This document shows, piece after piece, positions 18,001 to 24,000 of a DNA stretch of 64,000 bases (its first letter is position 1; each line of letters starts with the position of its first letter). The stretch comes from Ophelia neglecta (lineage: Eukaryota). Where the stretch lies: the NCBI GenBank assembly GCA_965285935.1, contig OZ260662.1, positions 29,078,001 to 29,142,000 on the forward strand, in the 5' to 3' direction. Made by a program: the position numbers.

Positions 18001-21000
18001 TGTCATGGGCATATTGATTTTACTAATGGTTTTAGGGGGCAATTGTGTGACAACTCACTTTTAGATAATTGCTGTTTGGACCAATTGTTGCAGTATTTAA
18101 CAAGGCCATGTCAAACGATCCTGACGGCAAAATATTGTTGTCTGGCTCTTTGAGAGCATGGAGAATGTTCTGGAAATCATGATTGTCTATATATATTGAT
18201 TATCAATTTGACATCCTTAATGTACATTGCTGCTACAGGGAAAAAAAAGACCAGTCTGGAAAAACAAAACAAAATACCTGATCTATAATGTTGGAGTAAT
18301 TCTTTTTGTAAATAATCATGATATCAATTCATAATTTTAGGTTATATCAGTATTATGTACCAAGTTAATTTCACAAATGTTCATTTACTTTCCATTTGAG
18401 CTGTATAATTGCTTGGCAGAGAGACTCAATCCAGCTGGAGCCATTTTGCACTGTGATTACCCATCGATTAAATCCCTGTAGGGTCAAAAAAAAAGGCAAT
18501 GACACAGCAATGACCGGAGTATAAACTATTTTATTCTTACATAACAGTTATTGCATCATGCATAATATAATGCAAAGCAGCCAGGTCTTGTATGACCTTC
18601 CCAAACCCATTACTGGTAGTAGGAAGTAGGGAGGCCCTTGGAAAAAATTTCAAGGGCCTGACATTTTGTGGTCAGAGGTATTGACAGGTAATTAAGGTAG
18701 GCAGCGCTCTTCCAGTCGCCTATCAATTTAATGATTTCACCAGGTATACCCTGGGAGAACGCCCAACTGGCTCCTCCCCGGCAAAAGGAGTAGGCTGCAT
18801 ACATAGAACTGTCATAGCCGAGCTGAATTAAAACCGTTTTGAATCTAGCTAGGAAGTCCCTGTACAGCATAGGGGTGGGGTTAGGGCCCCCACCAAGTGT
18901 AAAGGCACCCCTATGCTGGGGTCTACGGCAGGTACTCCAGTGAGGGAGCACTCTAAAGAGGGTATTGAGCCTACTGTCACAAGTAGGCACTGTGGCGATC
19001 TGACCGAAAAGTGTTGAAAGCCACGTAAATCCCCAAAAAACAACAACAACAACTCTGCCAGCTATCCACCCCCGTTCTACTAACCAATGGCTGTGGCAGG
19101 TATCCACCCCCGTCCTACTAACCGATGGCTGTGGCAGGTATCCACCCCCGTCCTACTAACCGATGGCTGTGGCAGCTATCCACCCCCGTCCTACTAACCC
19201 ATGGCTGTGGCAGGTATCCACCCCCGTCCTACTAACCCATGGCTGTGGCAGGTATCCACCCCTGTCCTACTAACCGATGGCTGTGGCAGGTATCCACCCC
19301 CGTCCTACTAACCAATGGCTGTGGCAGGTATCCACCCCCGTCCTACTAACCCATGTCTGTGGCAGGTATCCACCCCCGTCCTACTAACCGATGGCTGTGG
19401 CAGGTATCCACCCCCGTCCTACTAACCCATGGCTGTGGCAGGTATCCACCCCCGTCCTACTAACCCATGGCTGTGGCAGGTATCCACCCCAGTCCTACGA
19501 ACCCATGGCTGTGGCAGGTATCCACCCCCGTCCTACTAACCCATGGCTGTGGCAGGTATCCACCCCCGTCCTACTAACCCATGGCTGTGGCAGGTATCCA
19601 CCCCCGTCCTACTAACCCATGGCTGTGGCAGGTATCCACCCCCGTCCTACTAACCCATGGCTGTGGCAGGTATCCACCTCCGTCCTACTAACCCATGGCT
19701 GTGGCAGGTATCCACCCCCGTCCTACTAACCCATGGCTGTGGCAGGTATCCACCCCCGTCCTACTAACCCATGGCTGTGGCAGGTATCCACCACCATCCT
19801 CCTAATAGGCAGGATAAGTTGTATGTATGCCTTTTCTTTGGACTGAAATGCAGTGTAAGTTTGTAATGGATTCTGTCACACTCATCACTGTTTGGTCGAA
19901 AAACAGCCATTTAGCCTGTGAAAAAAACCCATTATCTTGTTTCAGGGTTATGCAAATAGATATTGTTGCAAATGGAAAAAATGTGTGAGATAAAGCATGG
20001 AATACATTTAGTTAGAAGCTTATTTTGATAATCAAACACAGGTAAAAACATTGTCAGTGTTTTGAAAAGTAGGCAAGAAGGCACAACTTTCAGAATAATA
20101 AACTCATGTATGAATGTTTTTTGGTACTTTAAGCCAACCTTCTAAAAACAATTTCTCCAAATATGATTGAACTTCAATAGCAGCTCCAGATTCTAGCTGT
20201 GGTACAAGATTACAGTGGATGTCAACCACATACTGATGACCTTTTGTTTTAGCCTTTGATTGCCCATCCATTAGCTGTGGTAGTCGGTTCCTTTCCCATG
20301 ATGTCATTCATGTTTTATAGTCAGTAAATCGCCCTAAGCAAAATTTCATGCATCTCAGAGCTAATAGCAGGTGTCCAAATGGCATAGGAATTTAACATGC
20401 TTGTTATATCAGCGCGCAGCTTTGCTGCTGGCGCTGATATATACGCCTCACTTATGAGAGTTTGCAGAATCGGTCGTGGCGATCTACAGGTCGCAATTCT
20501 TCGTCGATCGACTTCAAACTTTCAGACATCGTGTATGGCCCCAAACTCTCGGTTCCTTTCGAAGATGGTGAAAATCGGCCCGCGGGATCGAAAGTTATCG
20601 CCGAAAAACACGAAAAATGGCCAAATCGCGAGCCGGCGGTCGCCAAATCGCGATGAGGCGTCGCACAGCAAAATCGCCGGTGGCAATATGTCAGGTTCAA
20701 AAAAGTTAAAACCCGATCTTGTGCTGGGCGGAATTTCGTCCGTTTGGCGCTCAGACGCTTAATTTTTCGAGATACGGCCCAAATCTCGTTTCAAGTCTCG
20801 TGGCCCATATCTCGCTTAATAATGGAGCTAGAGACGTGAAATTTTTTTTAAACTGATTATTTTGGGCCCAGCTTTCGTTCGGACTCAAAAAATCCTGTGC
20901 GCATGCGCAAACTGCAAAATTTGAAATTGCGACTTTTTTCAACTTTCGAAAAAAAAATTATTTTCGAATCTCTCTAAAACAAAAGTGCGTCGTTTAGAGT

Positions 21001-24000
21001 AGTTCATACCGATTCCAAAACCGTCACGATCGTGAAAATCGCCCGATTATTTCGCGGTCAAATCGGCCACTGAAAATCGGCGAAATTGGCCTTTTTGCAT
21101 GGAATCACAGCTTTTAAACAAAAAATCATAACTCTTGTTGCATTGGACCTACAGACACGAGACTGGCACTAAAAGGTAGCCAGTGACGACGCACAAGTTT
21201 GCCTCGCGATATGTTATTTGGTTCAACGCTTACTTTTCGAGATATCGCCCAAATCCCGCTTCAAGTCTCGTTTCACTCTTGTGGCAACACTGTTTGCGCT
21301 AGAGCCATAAAAATAGCACCAAAATGATCGGCCAGTAGCCTTCTGCTACATACTAGAAAATTATTTGTCTGCGCATGCGCAATTTTTTTTGACAGACAAA
21401 AACATGTTTTTTATTTTTTCATTTTTTGTACGATGAAAAAATCATGTCCCCTGGTGATCAATCGCTCAACTAATGACGCCATTTTGTACCTTAGCATGTC
21501 AGCTTGCTAAATGCATTGCTCTTTTATCGCTCCAGTCTCGTTTTCATGCGATTCCCAGCAGGTTTTTGACACCCACTTTGCGTCATTTTCGACACATATT
21601 GCGTAATTGTGACGTAACTAGAAGTGATAGCGATGCCTAGTAAAAACCAAAATGGCGCCCATAGGGTACCCTATCAGTCCGTATCAACAGTTCTGCTCTG
21701 CGCATGCGCATATCGAAAATAGAAATTTTCTCTGCTTGCCGACATCTCTGTGTTTGAAAAAATCATGTGGCGACACCGTGCGTCCGACACATGAACTCCT
21801 GGCGCCATTTTGTAGAGAAATTCAAGCTCTTACTTTTGCCACCGTTTTTGCTTAGATTGGCTTTTATTTTCATGCAAATACGCGTGCGCAACGAATGGTT
21901 TATGTTTTACATGCTTTGTTAGCGCCATCTTGGGGTTACTTGCTGAACAGAAGGGTCTGCCCTGTAGTTTGATCCTTCCTCTAACCGGTCATGTCATTTA
22001 TTTATCTCTAAGAACCTATTTTCTTGCTTTTGCAATAGAATTTTCAACCCTACCCCCCTTTGTCTATAGACGCTTCTGACACGTTGACAGAAAATACAGT
22101 TTTCATACCGCGAATTCTTCTGGCTGACAGGCCATAAATATGGCATGACCTAAATAGCGTACATACATCTGTGGAGACACATACTGTCATGACCACGGTA
22201 ATCAGTGTTAGTAGGGCAGGTCGTCTCTGTGCATATAAACATTCTACCATAGGTCCGGTTACAGGGAGTCATTTTAAACTTGCGTTTCACGTTTTGGACC
22301 ATAGTTTAGCCAATAATGGTCCTAGAATCACCGTTCGAACGTCATTTTGTAGCTTACATTTTACTTATTTCACGCGTTACCGAGGCGCTGATATACCGTG
22401 CGCTAGGCGCTCTCGTTCTTTTTTCCTCAACTGGCCTGCCATGTTGCTCATGACACTAGTTGCCAATGGGTTCTAATATCTAATTAATGGAAGCAGGTGG
22501 GCCCAGGAGAAATAGATTAGACCAGCTAAAGGATTACCATTTTCTTCAAAAATTACTTTTGGGTAATTGCCTTGACCAGGATAGCTAAAAGATTCTAAAC
22601 ACATGTAGTTTGGAATATGGCACACAAGGTCTACTTAGGGATTAAGAGTTGGTTTCTGTGTATGGCTTCTTACATTTCCTTTAAGCTCAAATGATAAATG
22701 AATTGTTCTGGAAATAGCCAAAACCTACTCTAGAGATATATGTCTACATGTACACAGACACATATAGGTGTGAATGTAATTATACACACTAAATACAAGG
22801 TTGTGGATATACATCTCCACAGATATATTATTCTTTTGCATCTACATTTCAGGGAAAGCTTTATTAATCCAGAGTGTATCCCTCCTCTATCCTTCTGTCG
22901 TACCTACATCCATGCCCCCCTTCTCTTCCTTGTCATTTCAAATCTCTCACAAACATCTGAACTTCCTTCCTGCAATCTCAGCCCCTGGACCTCCCTTCAA
23001 CTTCATGGGGGGAAGGTGGAGGGGGAAGCAACATCTACTCCAATCCTGCCATTCCTCTCTCGTGTTTTGTCTCCCTTTCTTCCACCTTGGCTGCTTCCAT
23101 GTCATCTTGGCTTGTTTCAGCCGTATCAGATAATCTCACTGCCCCCACTTGTGGGCTTTCCCTTTCCAATCACTACATATTCCCGGCTATCTCTGTTTCC
23201 TCCCCATCTTGCCTGCTCCTACCTAGCCGCCTCCGTCCCTCCTGTCTTCTCTGCTCCTACCATGCCATTACTGCTCCCTCCCCATCTTCTCTGCACCTTC
23301 CCTGCTATCTCAGTTCCCTCCAAGACATCACTGCCAAATCCCTACCATATCTATTCCCTTCTTGTTATCTCTACTCTCCACTCTCCATCTCTATTCCCTC
23401 CCTGTCGTCTTTGCTGCATCCCTGCCATGTATTCCCTTCCTGTCATCTCTACTCTCCTGTTACCATCTCGGCCATTTCTGTTACCTCACTGTCTTCCCTG
23501 CTACTCCCTAAGATCTCCATTCCCTCCCGGTTATCTCTGTTCCCTCCCCCCCCCCCCCCTGTCATCTATAATGCTTCTTACCTGCCAACATTATTCCCTC
23601 CCCGTCGTCTCATTTCCCTCACAGTATTCTTTGCTCCTTACCTGATATCTCTATTACCTGACTGTGATATCTGTTCCCCCCTGTCATCTTTGCTCCTTCC
23701 TTACCAACTCTATTGTCCCCCCGTCATCTCTATTCCCTCCCTTTTATTTATATTTCCTCTCTATCATCTCTGCCCCTTCCTTATTTGCCCCTCTCAGTCA
23801 GCTCTGTCATCTTTTCTCCCCCTCCCCCCCCCCCCCTACCTCCCATCCTCCCCAAATCTCCTTCCTGTTCCCTTTCCTCTTTCCTCTGTGCCACTCACTT
23901 ATGTTCCCTTCCCCTCCCTCATCATATTTTTTGCTCCTCTTCTCTGTACAACTGTATTTCCTTACTCCTCTGTCCCTGCCATGTCTGTTTCCTTCTGTCC

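What the first reader, a model, noticed from the sequence alone, without database searches (positions are those of the whole stretch)
20403..22417. Intact-ended, CpG-rich 2-kb Helentron-type (HINE) insertion not visible in the ORF track
Seen: the 11-mer GCGCTGATATA or its inverse occurs at 20405, 20431 and 22385. It forms a 5' hairpin (with an inner GCAGC-TTT-GCTGC stem) and a 3' subterminal copy followed by a small stem-loop, with T-rich flanks and no TSD. Known: this asymmetric subTIR plus 3' stem-loop layout is the DINE-1/HINE signature of Helentron rolling-circle transposons. Inference: CpGs are abundant inside the element but depleted in the surrounding intron, so the insertion is probably young and possibly polymorphic, and it may be an uncatalogued family.
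Basis: partly seen in the sequence, partly recalled or inferred. Interest (0 to 1): 0.7.

Follow-up and report, generated by a model that had tools for sequence, protein, structure and literature searches.

The report
Probable young Helentron-type transposon insertion
A 2-kb non-coding, CpG-rich block in an intron of an invertebrate zinc-finger gene looks like a recent insertion of a non-autonomous rolling-circle (Helentron-type) transposon, an ordinary kind of element whose family membership could not be proven here.

Summary
The 11-mer GCGCTGATATA occurs exactly three times in the window, at 20405 (inverse), 20431 and 22385. The first two form a strong hairpin (0 of 200 shuffles fold as well). 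CpG observed/expected is 1.35 inside 20403-22417 and 0.23 on both sides. The CpG block (20413-22414) begins inside the left 11-mer and runs 19 nt past the right one, so the right repeat is subterminal.

The block has no target-site duplication over 3 bp, no Pfam domain in 33 of 33 internal ORFs, and no Rfam or tRNA hit.

This layout matches published descriptions of DINE-1 and oyster Cg_HINE elements: 5' subTIR, complementary IR, 3' subTIR and a tail. One claimed feature is weak. The 3' stem-loop is only 4 bp and no better than shuffles.

The decisive tests could not be run, because no eukaryotic genome was reachable. These are copy number, shared boundaries, an empty site and a Rep-helicase partner.

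Verdict: probably a young HINE-like insertion, a new member of a known kind and of low interest. A second CpG-rich insertion in the window, a TA-flanked MITE, shows that such contrast is normal for young transposons here.

The parts
20403..22417 (+). Whole inserted block (a working boundary). The left end lies somewhere between about 20370 and 20405. The right end is at or beyond 22415.
   Evidence: The ML CpG block is 20413-22414, with 128 CpG in 2002 nt against 71 in 6999 nt around it. CpG o/e is 1.35 against 0.23. The dinucleotide signature also differs for GC, CC/GG and AA/TT.
20405..20415 (+). 5' subterminal inverted repeat (inverse of the 11-mer).
   Evidence: (I16, I17).
20416..20430 (+). 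Spacer of the 5' hairpin. It has an inner 5-bp stem (20416-20420 / 20424-20428), a TTT loop and a 2-nt bulge.
   Evidence: Fold; sequence read.
20431..20441 (+). IR: an 11-mer complementary to the 5' subTIR, 15 nt downstream of it.
   Evidence: hairpin z -3.6, 0 of 200 shuffles.
20540..21480 (+). Two diverged direct copies of a unit of about 470 bp. Colinear anchors are offset by 464-472 nt.
   Evidence: global alignment z 8.7, 0 of 100 shuffles.
21360..22020 (+). Two diverged direct copies of a unit of about 327 bp. Each unit class carries the palindrome GCGCATGCGC, which sits at 20899, 21371 and 21700.
   Evidence: global z 4.1, 0 of 100 shuffles. The 10-mer occurs 3 times inside the element and 0 times in the rest of the window.
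22385..22395 (+). 3' subterminal inverted repeat, in the same orientation as the IR.
   Evidence: (I17, D16).
22396..22417 (+). 3' tail beyond the repeat. It holds 4 CpG in its first 20 nt and a 4-bp GCGC/GCGC stem with a 3-nt loop (22400-22410).
   Evidence: CpG positions 22397, 22401, 22408 and 22414. The stem appears in the folds but is not better than shuffles.

Best explanation
The block at about 20403-22417 is a fairly recent insertion of a non-autonomous Helentron-type (HLE2 / HINE / DINE-1-like) rolling-circle transposon. It sits in a roughly 41-kb intron of a multi-zf-met zinc-finger gene of an invertebrate. The best protein match of the gene is to an annelid.

Shown here:
- It is a sharply bounded, non-coding insert whose composition is foreign to its surroundings.
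- An 11-bp repeat sits near the left end and folds back on a nearby complementary copy.
- An inverted copy sits about 20 nt inside the right end.
- There is no target-site duplication.
- The interior is made of old, diverged direct repeats.

Inferred from what is established for Helitron-like elements (recalled, not tested here):
- A Rep/helicase protein encoded by an autonomous relative elsewhere in the genome nicks at the 5' end, peels off one strand 5'->3' and stops at the 3' repeat plus tail.
- The ends are joined into a circle and the strand is inserted between two T's, leaving no duplication.
- The high CpG content means the copy has spent little time in this heavily CpG-depleted, presumably methylated, gene body.
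For: - The 11-mer occurs three times, only here, and its outer copies sit at the edges of the CpG block.
- The 5' subTIR + IR hairpin is significant. Such hairpins are rare in the window: 4 distinct ones.
- There are 4 CpGs in the 20 nt after the right repeat. The background rate is 71 per 6999 nt, so about 0.2 are expected and the Poisson P is about 5e-5 by my arithmetic. The repeat is therefore subterminal, the asymmetry that sets HLE2 apart from ordinary TIR transposons.
- No TSD over 3 bp.
- The element is non-coding. 0 of 33 ORFs of at least 40 aa inside it hit Pfam. There is no Rfam hit and no tRNA.
- TT sits at both working ends and a T run follows the right end.
- Diverged internal direct repeats are present.
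- The layout matches Cg_HINE and DINE-1 as described in PMC7492417 and PMC4067079. Helentron proteins are reported from Annelida and molluscs (PMC4067079 passage).
- A second young insertion in the window, the TA-flanked MITE at 53905-54415, is also CpG-rich (o/e 1.15). CpG richness therefore marks recent transposon insertions here.
Against: - No second copy was seen anywhere. There is none in the other 62 kb of the window.
- The two element ORFs searched have no relatives in the protein collections: 0 hits for 20388-20762 in 1.84 billion representatives, and 0 for 22138-22476. These are weak tests, because non-coding repeats are rarely predicted as proteins.
- The 3' stem-loop, part of the family signature, is only 4 bp and no better than shuffles.
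- The subTIR is 11 nt, the lower limit of published ranges. HELIANO searches for TIRs longer than 11 nt.
- The tail after the 3' subTIR is about 22 nt if the CpG edge is the end. The mite HINEs have 38-60 bp.
- There is no microsatellite, and the IR spacer of 15 nt is longer than the 1-12 bp given for oyster.
- No Rep/helicase is in the window: 0 of the 101 ORFs of at least 75 aa that were scanned, out of 131. The 30 left out lie in tandem arrays or in the C/T-rich tract at 22.8-24.1 kb.
- The T-T target is compatible, but it carries little information because the boundary can be slid.
Confidence: 0.58

Rival explanations
1. It is an ordinary cut-and-paste TIR transposon or MITE with a TA target. 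On this reading the element would be 20407-22393, with 9-bp terminal inverted repeats flanked by TA on each side.
For: Both outer 11-mers begin or end with TATA, so a TA + 9-bp TIR reading is formally possible. The same window holds a clear TA-flanked MITE with 27-nt arms that are 96% complementary.
Against: The CpG-rich block continues 19-20 nt beyond the right repeat with 4 CpGs, while the next CpG downstream is 485 nt away. The insert is therefore not bounded by the right repeat. A 9-11-bp TIR is short. The extra inward-facing copy that forms the 5' hairpin is not a feature of such elements.
Confidence: 0.1
2. It is a mobile or inserted sequence of some other or unknown class. Candidates are a foldback-like element, a fragment of a larger composite element, or a horizontally acquired piece. 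The Helentron-like ends would then be coincidental.
For: Only the structure supports the HINE reading, with no homology. The 3' stem-loop is not significant. The dinucleotide signature differs from the host beyond CpG: GC 1.40 vs 1.01, CC 0.82 vs 1.25, AA 1.35 vs 1.07.
Against: The combination of subTIR, IR, subterminal 3' copy and no TSD is specific to the HLE2 descriptions read here. No match was found to plasmids or phages or to prokaryotic genomes by two exact-pattern scans. Under the mitochondrial code there are no long ORFs, the longest being 151 aa in overlapping frames, and there are no tRNAs. A NUMT or bacterial or viral coding DNA is therefore unlikely.
Confidence: 0.2
3. It is not an insertion but a resident unmethylated CpG island, that is, an intronic promoter or enhancer kept CpG-rich by protection from methylation.
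For: CpG o/e exceeds 1. The palindrome GCGCATGCGC occurs three times, and CGCCATTTT or its inverse three times. From memory these resemble NRF1- and YY1-type promoter motifs; no call tested this. The conserved short patches lie inside otherwise diverged repeats.
Against: The edges are abrupt rather than graded, and they coincide with an inverted-repeat pair. GC content is not raised: 0.435 against 0.40-0.42. No exon, ORF family or RNA gene is in or next to it. The other CpG-rich patch of this kind in the intron region is a plain MITE.
Confidence: 0.07
4. It is an assembly artefact or contaminant sequence joined into the intron.
For: The composition differs from the flanks, and only a single copy has been seen.
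Against: The structured ends sit exactly at the composition change. There are no N's or gaps in the window. No match was found in prokaryote, plasmid or phage collections. A 2-kb non-coding contaminant with intact inverted repeats at both joins is improbable.
Confidence: 0.05

Closest known systems
[quoted passage not shown]
   Same: Both have an 11-12-bp subTIR, a complementary IR just downstream of the 5' subTIR, and a 3' subTIR followed by a short tail with a palindrome. Both are non-coding with repeats between the two end modules, and both come from a spiralian host.
   Different: Here the IR spacer is 15 nt (oyster 1-12), and no microsatellite follows the left module. The interior is a pair of old, strongly diverged repeats of about 470 and 327 bp rather than a satDNA-like array. 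The 3' palindrome is only 4 bp. No sequence similarity could be tested, because the subTIR table is in a PDF supplement that cannot be read here. The readable spreadsheet holds neither 11-mer.
DINE-1 / INE-1 of Drosophila (PMC4067079; passages read)
   Same: Both have a subTIR plus an IR 3-22 bp from the 5' subTIR, a short 3' stem-loop region, a TT-type target without duplication, and central repeats.
   Different: DINE-1 subTIRs are 13 bp and there is a conserved core and a microsatellite. The host here is not an insect, and no homology was tested.
HINE-Mo families of the mite Metaseiulus occidentalis, and the canonical HLE2 layout used by HELIANO (PMC4067079; PMC11417382)
   Same: Both have short inverted repeats near both ends, a stem-loop expected after the right repeat, and insertion between T and T.
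   Different: The mite subTIRs are themselves palindromic, lack the IR, and lie 38-60 bp from the 3' end. HELIANO expects TIRs of more than 11 and fewer than 18 nt, so this element's 11 nt falls just below that range.
Canonical Helitrons (HLE1)
   Same: Both are non-coding derivatives moved by a Rep/helicase, make no target-site duplication, and have a terminal hairpin signal.
   Different: HLE1 elements start with TC, end with a hairpin plus CTRR, insert between A and T, and have no inverted repeats. This element has inverted repeats and T-rich ends.
TA-flanked MITE in the same window (53905-54415)
   Same: It is a young, CpG-rich (o/e 1.15), non-coding insertion in the same gene.
   Different: It has symmetric 27-nt terminal arms that include TA at both ends, with no subterminal asymmetry and no 5' foldback.

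Membership tests
HINE / non-autonomous Helentron (HLE2) | Short inverted repeats (11-16 nt) near both ends. | tested here: met
   There is a perfect 11-nt pair at 20405-20415 / 22385-22395. This is at the lower limit of published ranges.
HINE / non-autonomous Helentron (HLE2) | The right repeat is subterminal, so the element continues past it. | tested here: met
   There are 4 CpGs in the 20 nt after 22395, against about 0.2 expected from the flanking rate.
HINE / non-autonomous Helentron (HLE2) | A stem-loop or palindrome after the 3' repeat. | tested here: inconclusive
   A 4-bp GCGC/GCGC stem with a 3-nt loop lies at 22400-22410. Of 200 shuffles, 23 (22-nt tail), 39 (65 nt) and 58 (56 nt) fold as well.
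DINE-1 / Cg_HINE subtype | An IR complementary to the 5' subTIR a few to about 22 bp downstream. | tested here: met
   The IR is at 20431-20441, 15 nt from the subTIR. The hairpin scores z -3.6 / -4.5, with 0 of 200 shuffles as good.
HINE / non-autonomous Helentron (HLE2) | The 5' repeat lies 2-4 nt from the 5' terminus. | tested here: inconclusive
   The CpG block starts inside the repeat, and there is no CpG in the 82 nt upstream. The true end cannot be fixed without copies or an empty site.
HINE / non-autonomous Helentron (HLE2) | No target-site duplication. | tested here: met
   Only 3-bp chance matches were found over all boundary pairs tried.
HINE / non-autonomous Helentron (HLE2) | Insertion between T and T, with T's at the ends. 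| tested here: inconclusive
   TT is at 20401-20402 and 22416-22417, with a T run at 22419-22425. This is compatible, but it carries little information because the boundary is free.
HINE / non-autonomous Helentron (HLE2) | Non-coding, often with central tandem repeats or a microsatellite. | tested here: met
   0 of 33 ORFs hit Pfam. Diverged repeats of about 470 and 327 bp are present. There is no microsatellite; TRF reports only a 22-bp x 2.1 repeat at 20620-20664.
HINE / non-autonomous Helentron (HLE2) | An interspersed multi-copy family whose copies share both ends. | not testable with these tools
   No eukaryotic genome collection was available. There is no other copy in the window. The ORF-based protein searches were empty.
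HINE / non-autonomous Helentron (HLE2) | An autonomous partner encoding Rep/helicase (with or without endonuclease) that has the same termini. | not testable with these tools
   None was found among the 101 of 131 window ORFs of at least 75 aa that were scanned.
TA-target TIR transposon (Tc1/mariner-type MITE) | Terminal inverted repeats at the very ends, flanked by a duplicated TA. | tested here: not met
   TA flanks are formally present, but the insert extends about 20 nt past the right repeat.

The most novel reading that the evidence does not exclude
The element is a recently arrived Helentron-type vehicle, possibly horizontally acquired. Its cargo would be a threefold array of promoter-like modules, each with a GCGCATGCGC palindrome and a CGCCATTTT-type motif. 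It would resist methylation inside a heavily methylated gene body and act as a new intronic CpG island or promoter. That would be a direct example of a rolling-circle transposon seeding regulatory CpG islands in an invertebrate.
Probability: 0.06. Interest if true: 0.55.

Novelty: new member of a known kind. Interest (0 to 1): 0.25.

Why it matters
If confirmed, it adds one more HINE family to a spiralian genome, which is useful for repeat annotation but not surprising. Helentron proteins are already reported from annelids and molluscs. Its practical value is as a marker. The sharp CpG contrast (1.35 against 0.23) makes such insertions easy to spot and roughly date in methylated gene bodies. 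An intact-ended young copy also hints that the family, and so an autonomous Helentron, may still be active in this species.

Tried and rejected
**Searches for further copies**
- Copies inside the window: none. blastn at word size 9 and E <= 1 gave only the self-hit, one internal 47-nt repeat and three chance hits of 28 nt or less. The 600-bp flanks are also unique in the window.
- Copies through predicted proteins: ORF 20388-20762 against 1.84 billion representatives gave 0 hits. ORF 22138-22476 against the 5.8-billion collection gave 0 hits.

**Contamination and foreign DNA**
- No match in plasmids or phages with blastn 'distant'.
- Two exact-pattern scans of prokaryotic genome contigs found nothing. 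One used the 5' hairpin pattern and one a 27-nt 3' end.
- NUMT: no tRNA and no long ORF under table 5.

**RNA genes**
- Rfam gathering scan of the window gave 0 hits.
- An E <= 1 scan of 20200-22600 gave one meaningless hit: STnc410, 18 bits against a cut-off of 50.

**Literature**
- The two 11-mers occur in 7 papers, all unrelated primer or sequence strings judging by their titles.
- They are absent from the one readable oyster supplement.
- No paper on annelid HINEs surfaced. Only Thomas et al. 2014 mentions Annelida.

**Host identity**
- One exon gave a single hit: Paralvinella palmiformis, 51% identity.
- The 180-aa ORF at 18610-19152 gave nothing in the 'longer' search and nothing in Pfam. 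My first impression that it is recombinase-like is unsupported.

**Circle junction**
- I folded a hypothetical circle junction in a script. Pairing of the 5' repeat with the IR (-22.9 kcal/mol) and with the 3' repeat (-21.0) are nearly equal. This is an illustration only, not evidence.

**Left unchecked**
Copy number, empty site, autonomous partner and catalogue status all stayed unchecked.
- The PDF supplements listing published subTIRs (PMC4067079 Table S2, PMC7492417 Table S2) could not be read.

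
Full report
**What is there**

The window is eukaryotic, with GC about 0.40 and no N's. Three exons with zf-met / JAZ-type zinc fingers lie on the + strand at 3529-4113, 45045-45269 and 51747-51986. The first has one database relative among the longer proteins, a hypothetical protein of the annelid Paralvinella palmiformis at 51% identity. A tblastn of that protein back on the window hits 3673-4095 and 45087-45233. So the host is an invertebrate, perhaps a spiralian; the species was not established, and nothing suggests human sequence. 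The finding therefore lies in an intron of about 41 kb. This is an inference, because small exons in between were not excluded. I searched the exons one by one and built no joined model.

**The observation**

- The 11-mer GCGCTGATATA sits at 20431 and 22385, and its inverse at 20405. There are no other exact copies.
- With one mismatch allowed there are 6 matches against 0.53 expected, and 0 of 100 shuffles reach 6.
- Positions 20405-20441 fold into an 11-bp + 5-bp hairpin with a TTT loop. Its energy is -15.7 kcal/mol, z -3.6, with 0 of 200 shuffles as good; on the other strand z is -4.5.
- The window holds only 4 distinct perfect hairpins of this size. That is 9 k-mer hits against a mean of 0.96 in 50 shuffles.

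**CpG contrast**

- CpG observed/expected is 1.35 inside 20403-22417 and 0.229 on each side.
- A two-change-point likelihood scan of 17-26 kb places the dense block at 20413-22414. It holds 128 CpG in 2002 nt against 71 in the other 6999 nt, with log-likelihood -872.4 against -955.3 for no block.
- The nearest outside CpGs are at 20330 and 22899.
- The block also differs from the rest of the window in GC, CC/GG, AA/TT and TG/CA dinucleotides.

**What the CpG map adds**

- The left 11-mer holds the first CpG of the block.
- On the right, four more CpGs (22397, 22401, 22408, 22414) follow the 11-mer within 20 nt, and then none for 485 nt.
- At the flanking rate about 0.2 would be expected, so P is about 5e-5 by my arithmetic.
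- The insert thus runs past the right repeat. This is independent support for the asymmetric, subterminal layout and speaks against a plain TIR element.
- The left end cannot be fixed. The 82 nt upstream have no CpG, which at the element's density becomes unlikely beyond some 40 nt.

**What is weaker than claimed**

- The 3' stem-loop is a 4-bp GCGC/GCGC stem with a 3-nt loop (22400-22410). Shuffles fold as well in 58 of 200 and 37 of 200 (56-nt end, both strands), 39 of 200 (65 nt) and 23 of 200 (22-nt tail).
- The left flank is not notably T-rich. TT occurs at 20401-20402 and 20404-20405, while the right flank has TT at 22416-22417 and a T run at 22419-22425.
- No flanking direct repeat exceeds 3 bp for any of the boundary pairs tried.

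**Content**

- Stop-to-stop ORFs reach 124 aa, as expected by chance.
- Of the 35 ORFs of at least 40 aa overlapping 20300-22500, I scanned 33 against Pfam, with 0 hits. The two not scanned lie outside the element.
- Rfam gives nothing at gathering scores and only one meaningless sub-threshold hit. There are no tRNAs and no long frames under the invertebrate mitochondrial code.
- The interior consists of old direct duplications. Two units of about 470 bp (20540-21480) have global alignment z 8.7. Two units of about 327 bp (21360-22020) have z 4.1. In both cases 0 of 100 shuffles match, and the units have colinear anchors.
- The best-kept patches hold the palindrome GCGCATGCGC, three times inside and none outside, and CGCCATTTT-type motifs. 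From memory these resemble NRF1 and YY1 sites; no call tested that.

**Comparison with what is known**

I read passages, not whole papers.

- Thomas et al. 2014 (PMC4067079) describe HINEs with 12-15-bp subTIRs that lie 2-4 nt from the 5' end and 38-60 bp from the 3' end. [quoted passage not shown]
- The same paper describes DINE-1 with 13-bp subTIRs plus an IR 3-22 bp from the 5' subTIR. It takes at least 11 identical subTIR bases as the family criterion, and it reports Helentron proteins in Annelida and molluscs.
- The oyster paper (PMC7492417) describes subTIRs of 11-12 bp, a complementary IR of 7-12 bp separated by 1-12 bp, and a 3' subTIR followed by a palindrome.
- The HELIANO paper (PMC11417382) gives the canonical HLE2 layout as short TIRs (12-16 nt), a stem-loop after the right repeat, and T-T insertion.
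- The element here meets these features: repeat pair, IR, subterminal right repeat, no duplication, non-coding interior with repeats.
- It is inconclusive for these: 3' stem-loop, distance of the left repeat from the end, T-T target.

**What could not be done**

Copy number, shared boundaries, an empty site and a Rep/helicase partner were therefore not tested. The substitutes I tried were all empty:

- no other copy in the window;
- no protein-database relatives of two element ORFs;
- no match in plasmids, phages or prokaryotic genomes;
- no helitron-type domain among the 101 of 131 window ORFs of at least 75 aa that I scanned. The 30 left out lie in minisatellite arrays or in the C/T-rich tract at 22.8-24.1 kb.

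The 11-mer is not printed in any transposon paper of the library. It gave 7 hits, all unrelated by title. The published subTIR tables are in PDFs I could not read, so 'uncatalogued' stays open.

**An internal comparator**

The only other non-exonic CpG-rich patch of size (53701-54800, o/e 0.87) contains a 511-bp element at 53905-54415. Its 27-nt terminal arms are 96% complementary and include TA at both ends, and its CpG o/e is 1.15. This is a typical TA-target MITE. Young transposon insertions in this gene are thus CpG-rich against a depleted background. That makes 'young insertion' the simple reading of the contrast, and no horizontal transfer is needed. General knowledge, not tested here: invertebrate gene bodies are often methylated while much of the rest of the genome is not, so a family can keep CpG-rich source copies.

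**Mechanism**

This is inferred from knowledge of Helitron-like elements, recalled and not read here.

- A Rep/helicase from an autonomous Helentron would nick at the 5' end and unwind one strand.
- It would terminate at the 3' repeat plus tail, circularise the strand and insert it between T's.
- In a script I folded a hypothetical joined junction. The 5' repeat can pair either with the IR (-22.9 kcal/mol) or with the 3' repeat (-21.0). This merely shows that both are feasible.

**Verdict**

The block is most likely a young HINE-type insertion (confidence about 0.58), and I rate it a real, recent insertion of some mobile element at about 0.85. It is a new member of a known kind and of low interest.

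Noticed in passing
window 53905-54415: A 511-bp MITE-like element with 27-nt terminal arms that are 96% complementary and include TA at both ends. It is CpG-rich (o/e 1.15) inside the CpG-poor gene, so it is probably a young TA-target (Tc1/mariner-type) insertion.
   Followed up: partly
window 3529-4113, 45045-45269, 51747-51986 (+): Three exons with zf-met / JAZ-type zinc fingers belong to one apparent gene. The best relative is an annelid (Paralvinella palmiformis) hypothetical protein at 51% identity. The region 3401-4000 is the only exon-linked CpG-rich patch (o/e 0.81).
   Followed up: partly
window 33250-35560: A very regular minisatellite: a 43-bp unit repeated 53.7 times with 98% matches and a strong strand skew. 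Other large arrays lie at 696-1498 (34 bp x 23.8), 4672-5265 (51 bp x 11.6), 12610-13463, 19059-19805 (38 bp x 19.7) and 38301-38735 (33 bp x 13.2).
   Followed up: no
window 18610-19152 (-) and 14705-15538 (-): Open frames of 180 aa and 277 aa with no Pfam family. The first also has no relatives in the 'longer' protein search. They may be decayed transposon genes. The first abuts the 38-bp minisatellite at 19059-19805.
   Followed up: partly
window 22734-24089 (+): A C/T-rich tract with GC skew -0.59, several overlapping open frames of up to 362 aa and degenerate repeats of about 40 and 78 bp. It starts about 300 bp downstream of the element. The one frame scanned (22734-23642) has no Pfam hit.
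   Followed up: no
window 18866-18917, 33047-33098, 36196-36247: The three other perfect hairpins of at least 11 bp with loops up to 30 nt in the window. The one at 33047 has 15-bp arms and lies just before the 43-bp minisatellite.
   Followed up: no
window 20899, 21371, 21700; 21477, 21649, 21803: Inside the element, GCGCATGCGC occurs three times and CGCCATTTT or its inverse three times. They are the best-conserved patches of otherwise diverged internal repeats. They resemble promoter motifs from memory only.
   Followed up: partly
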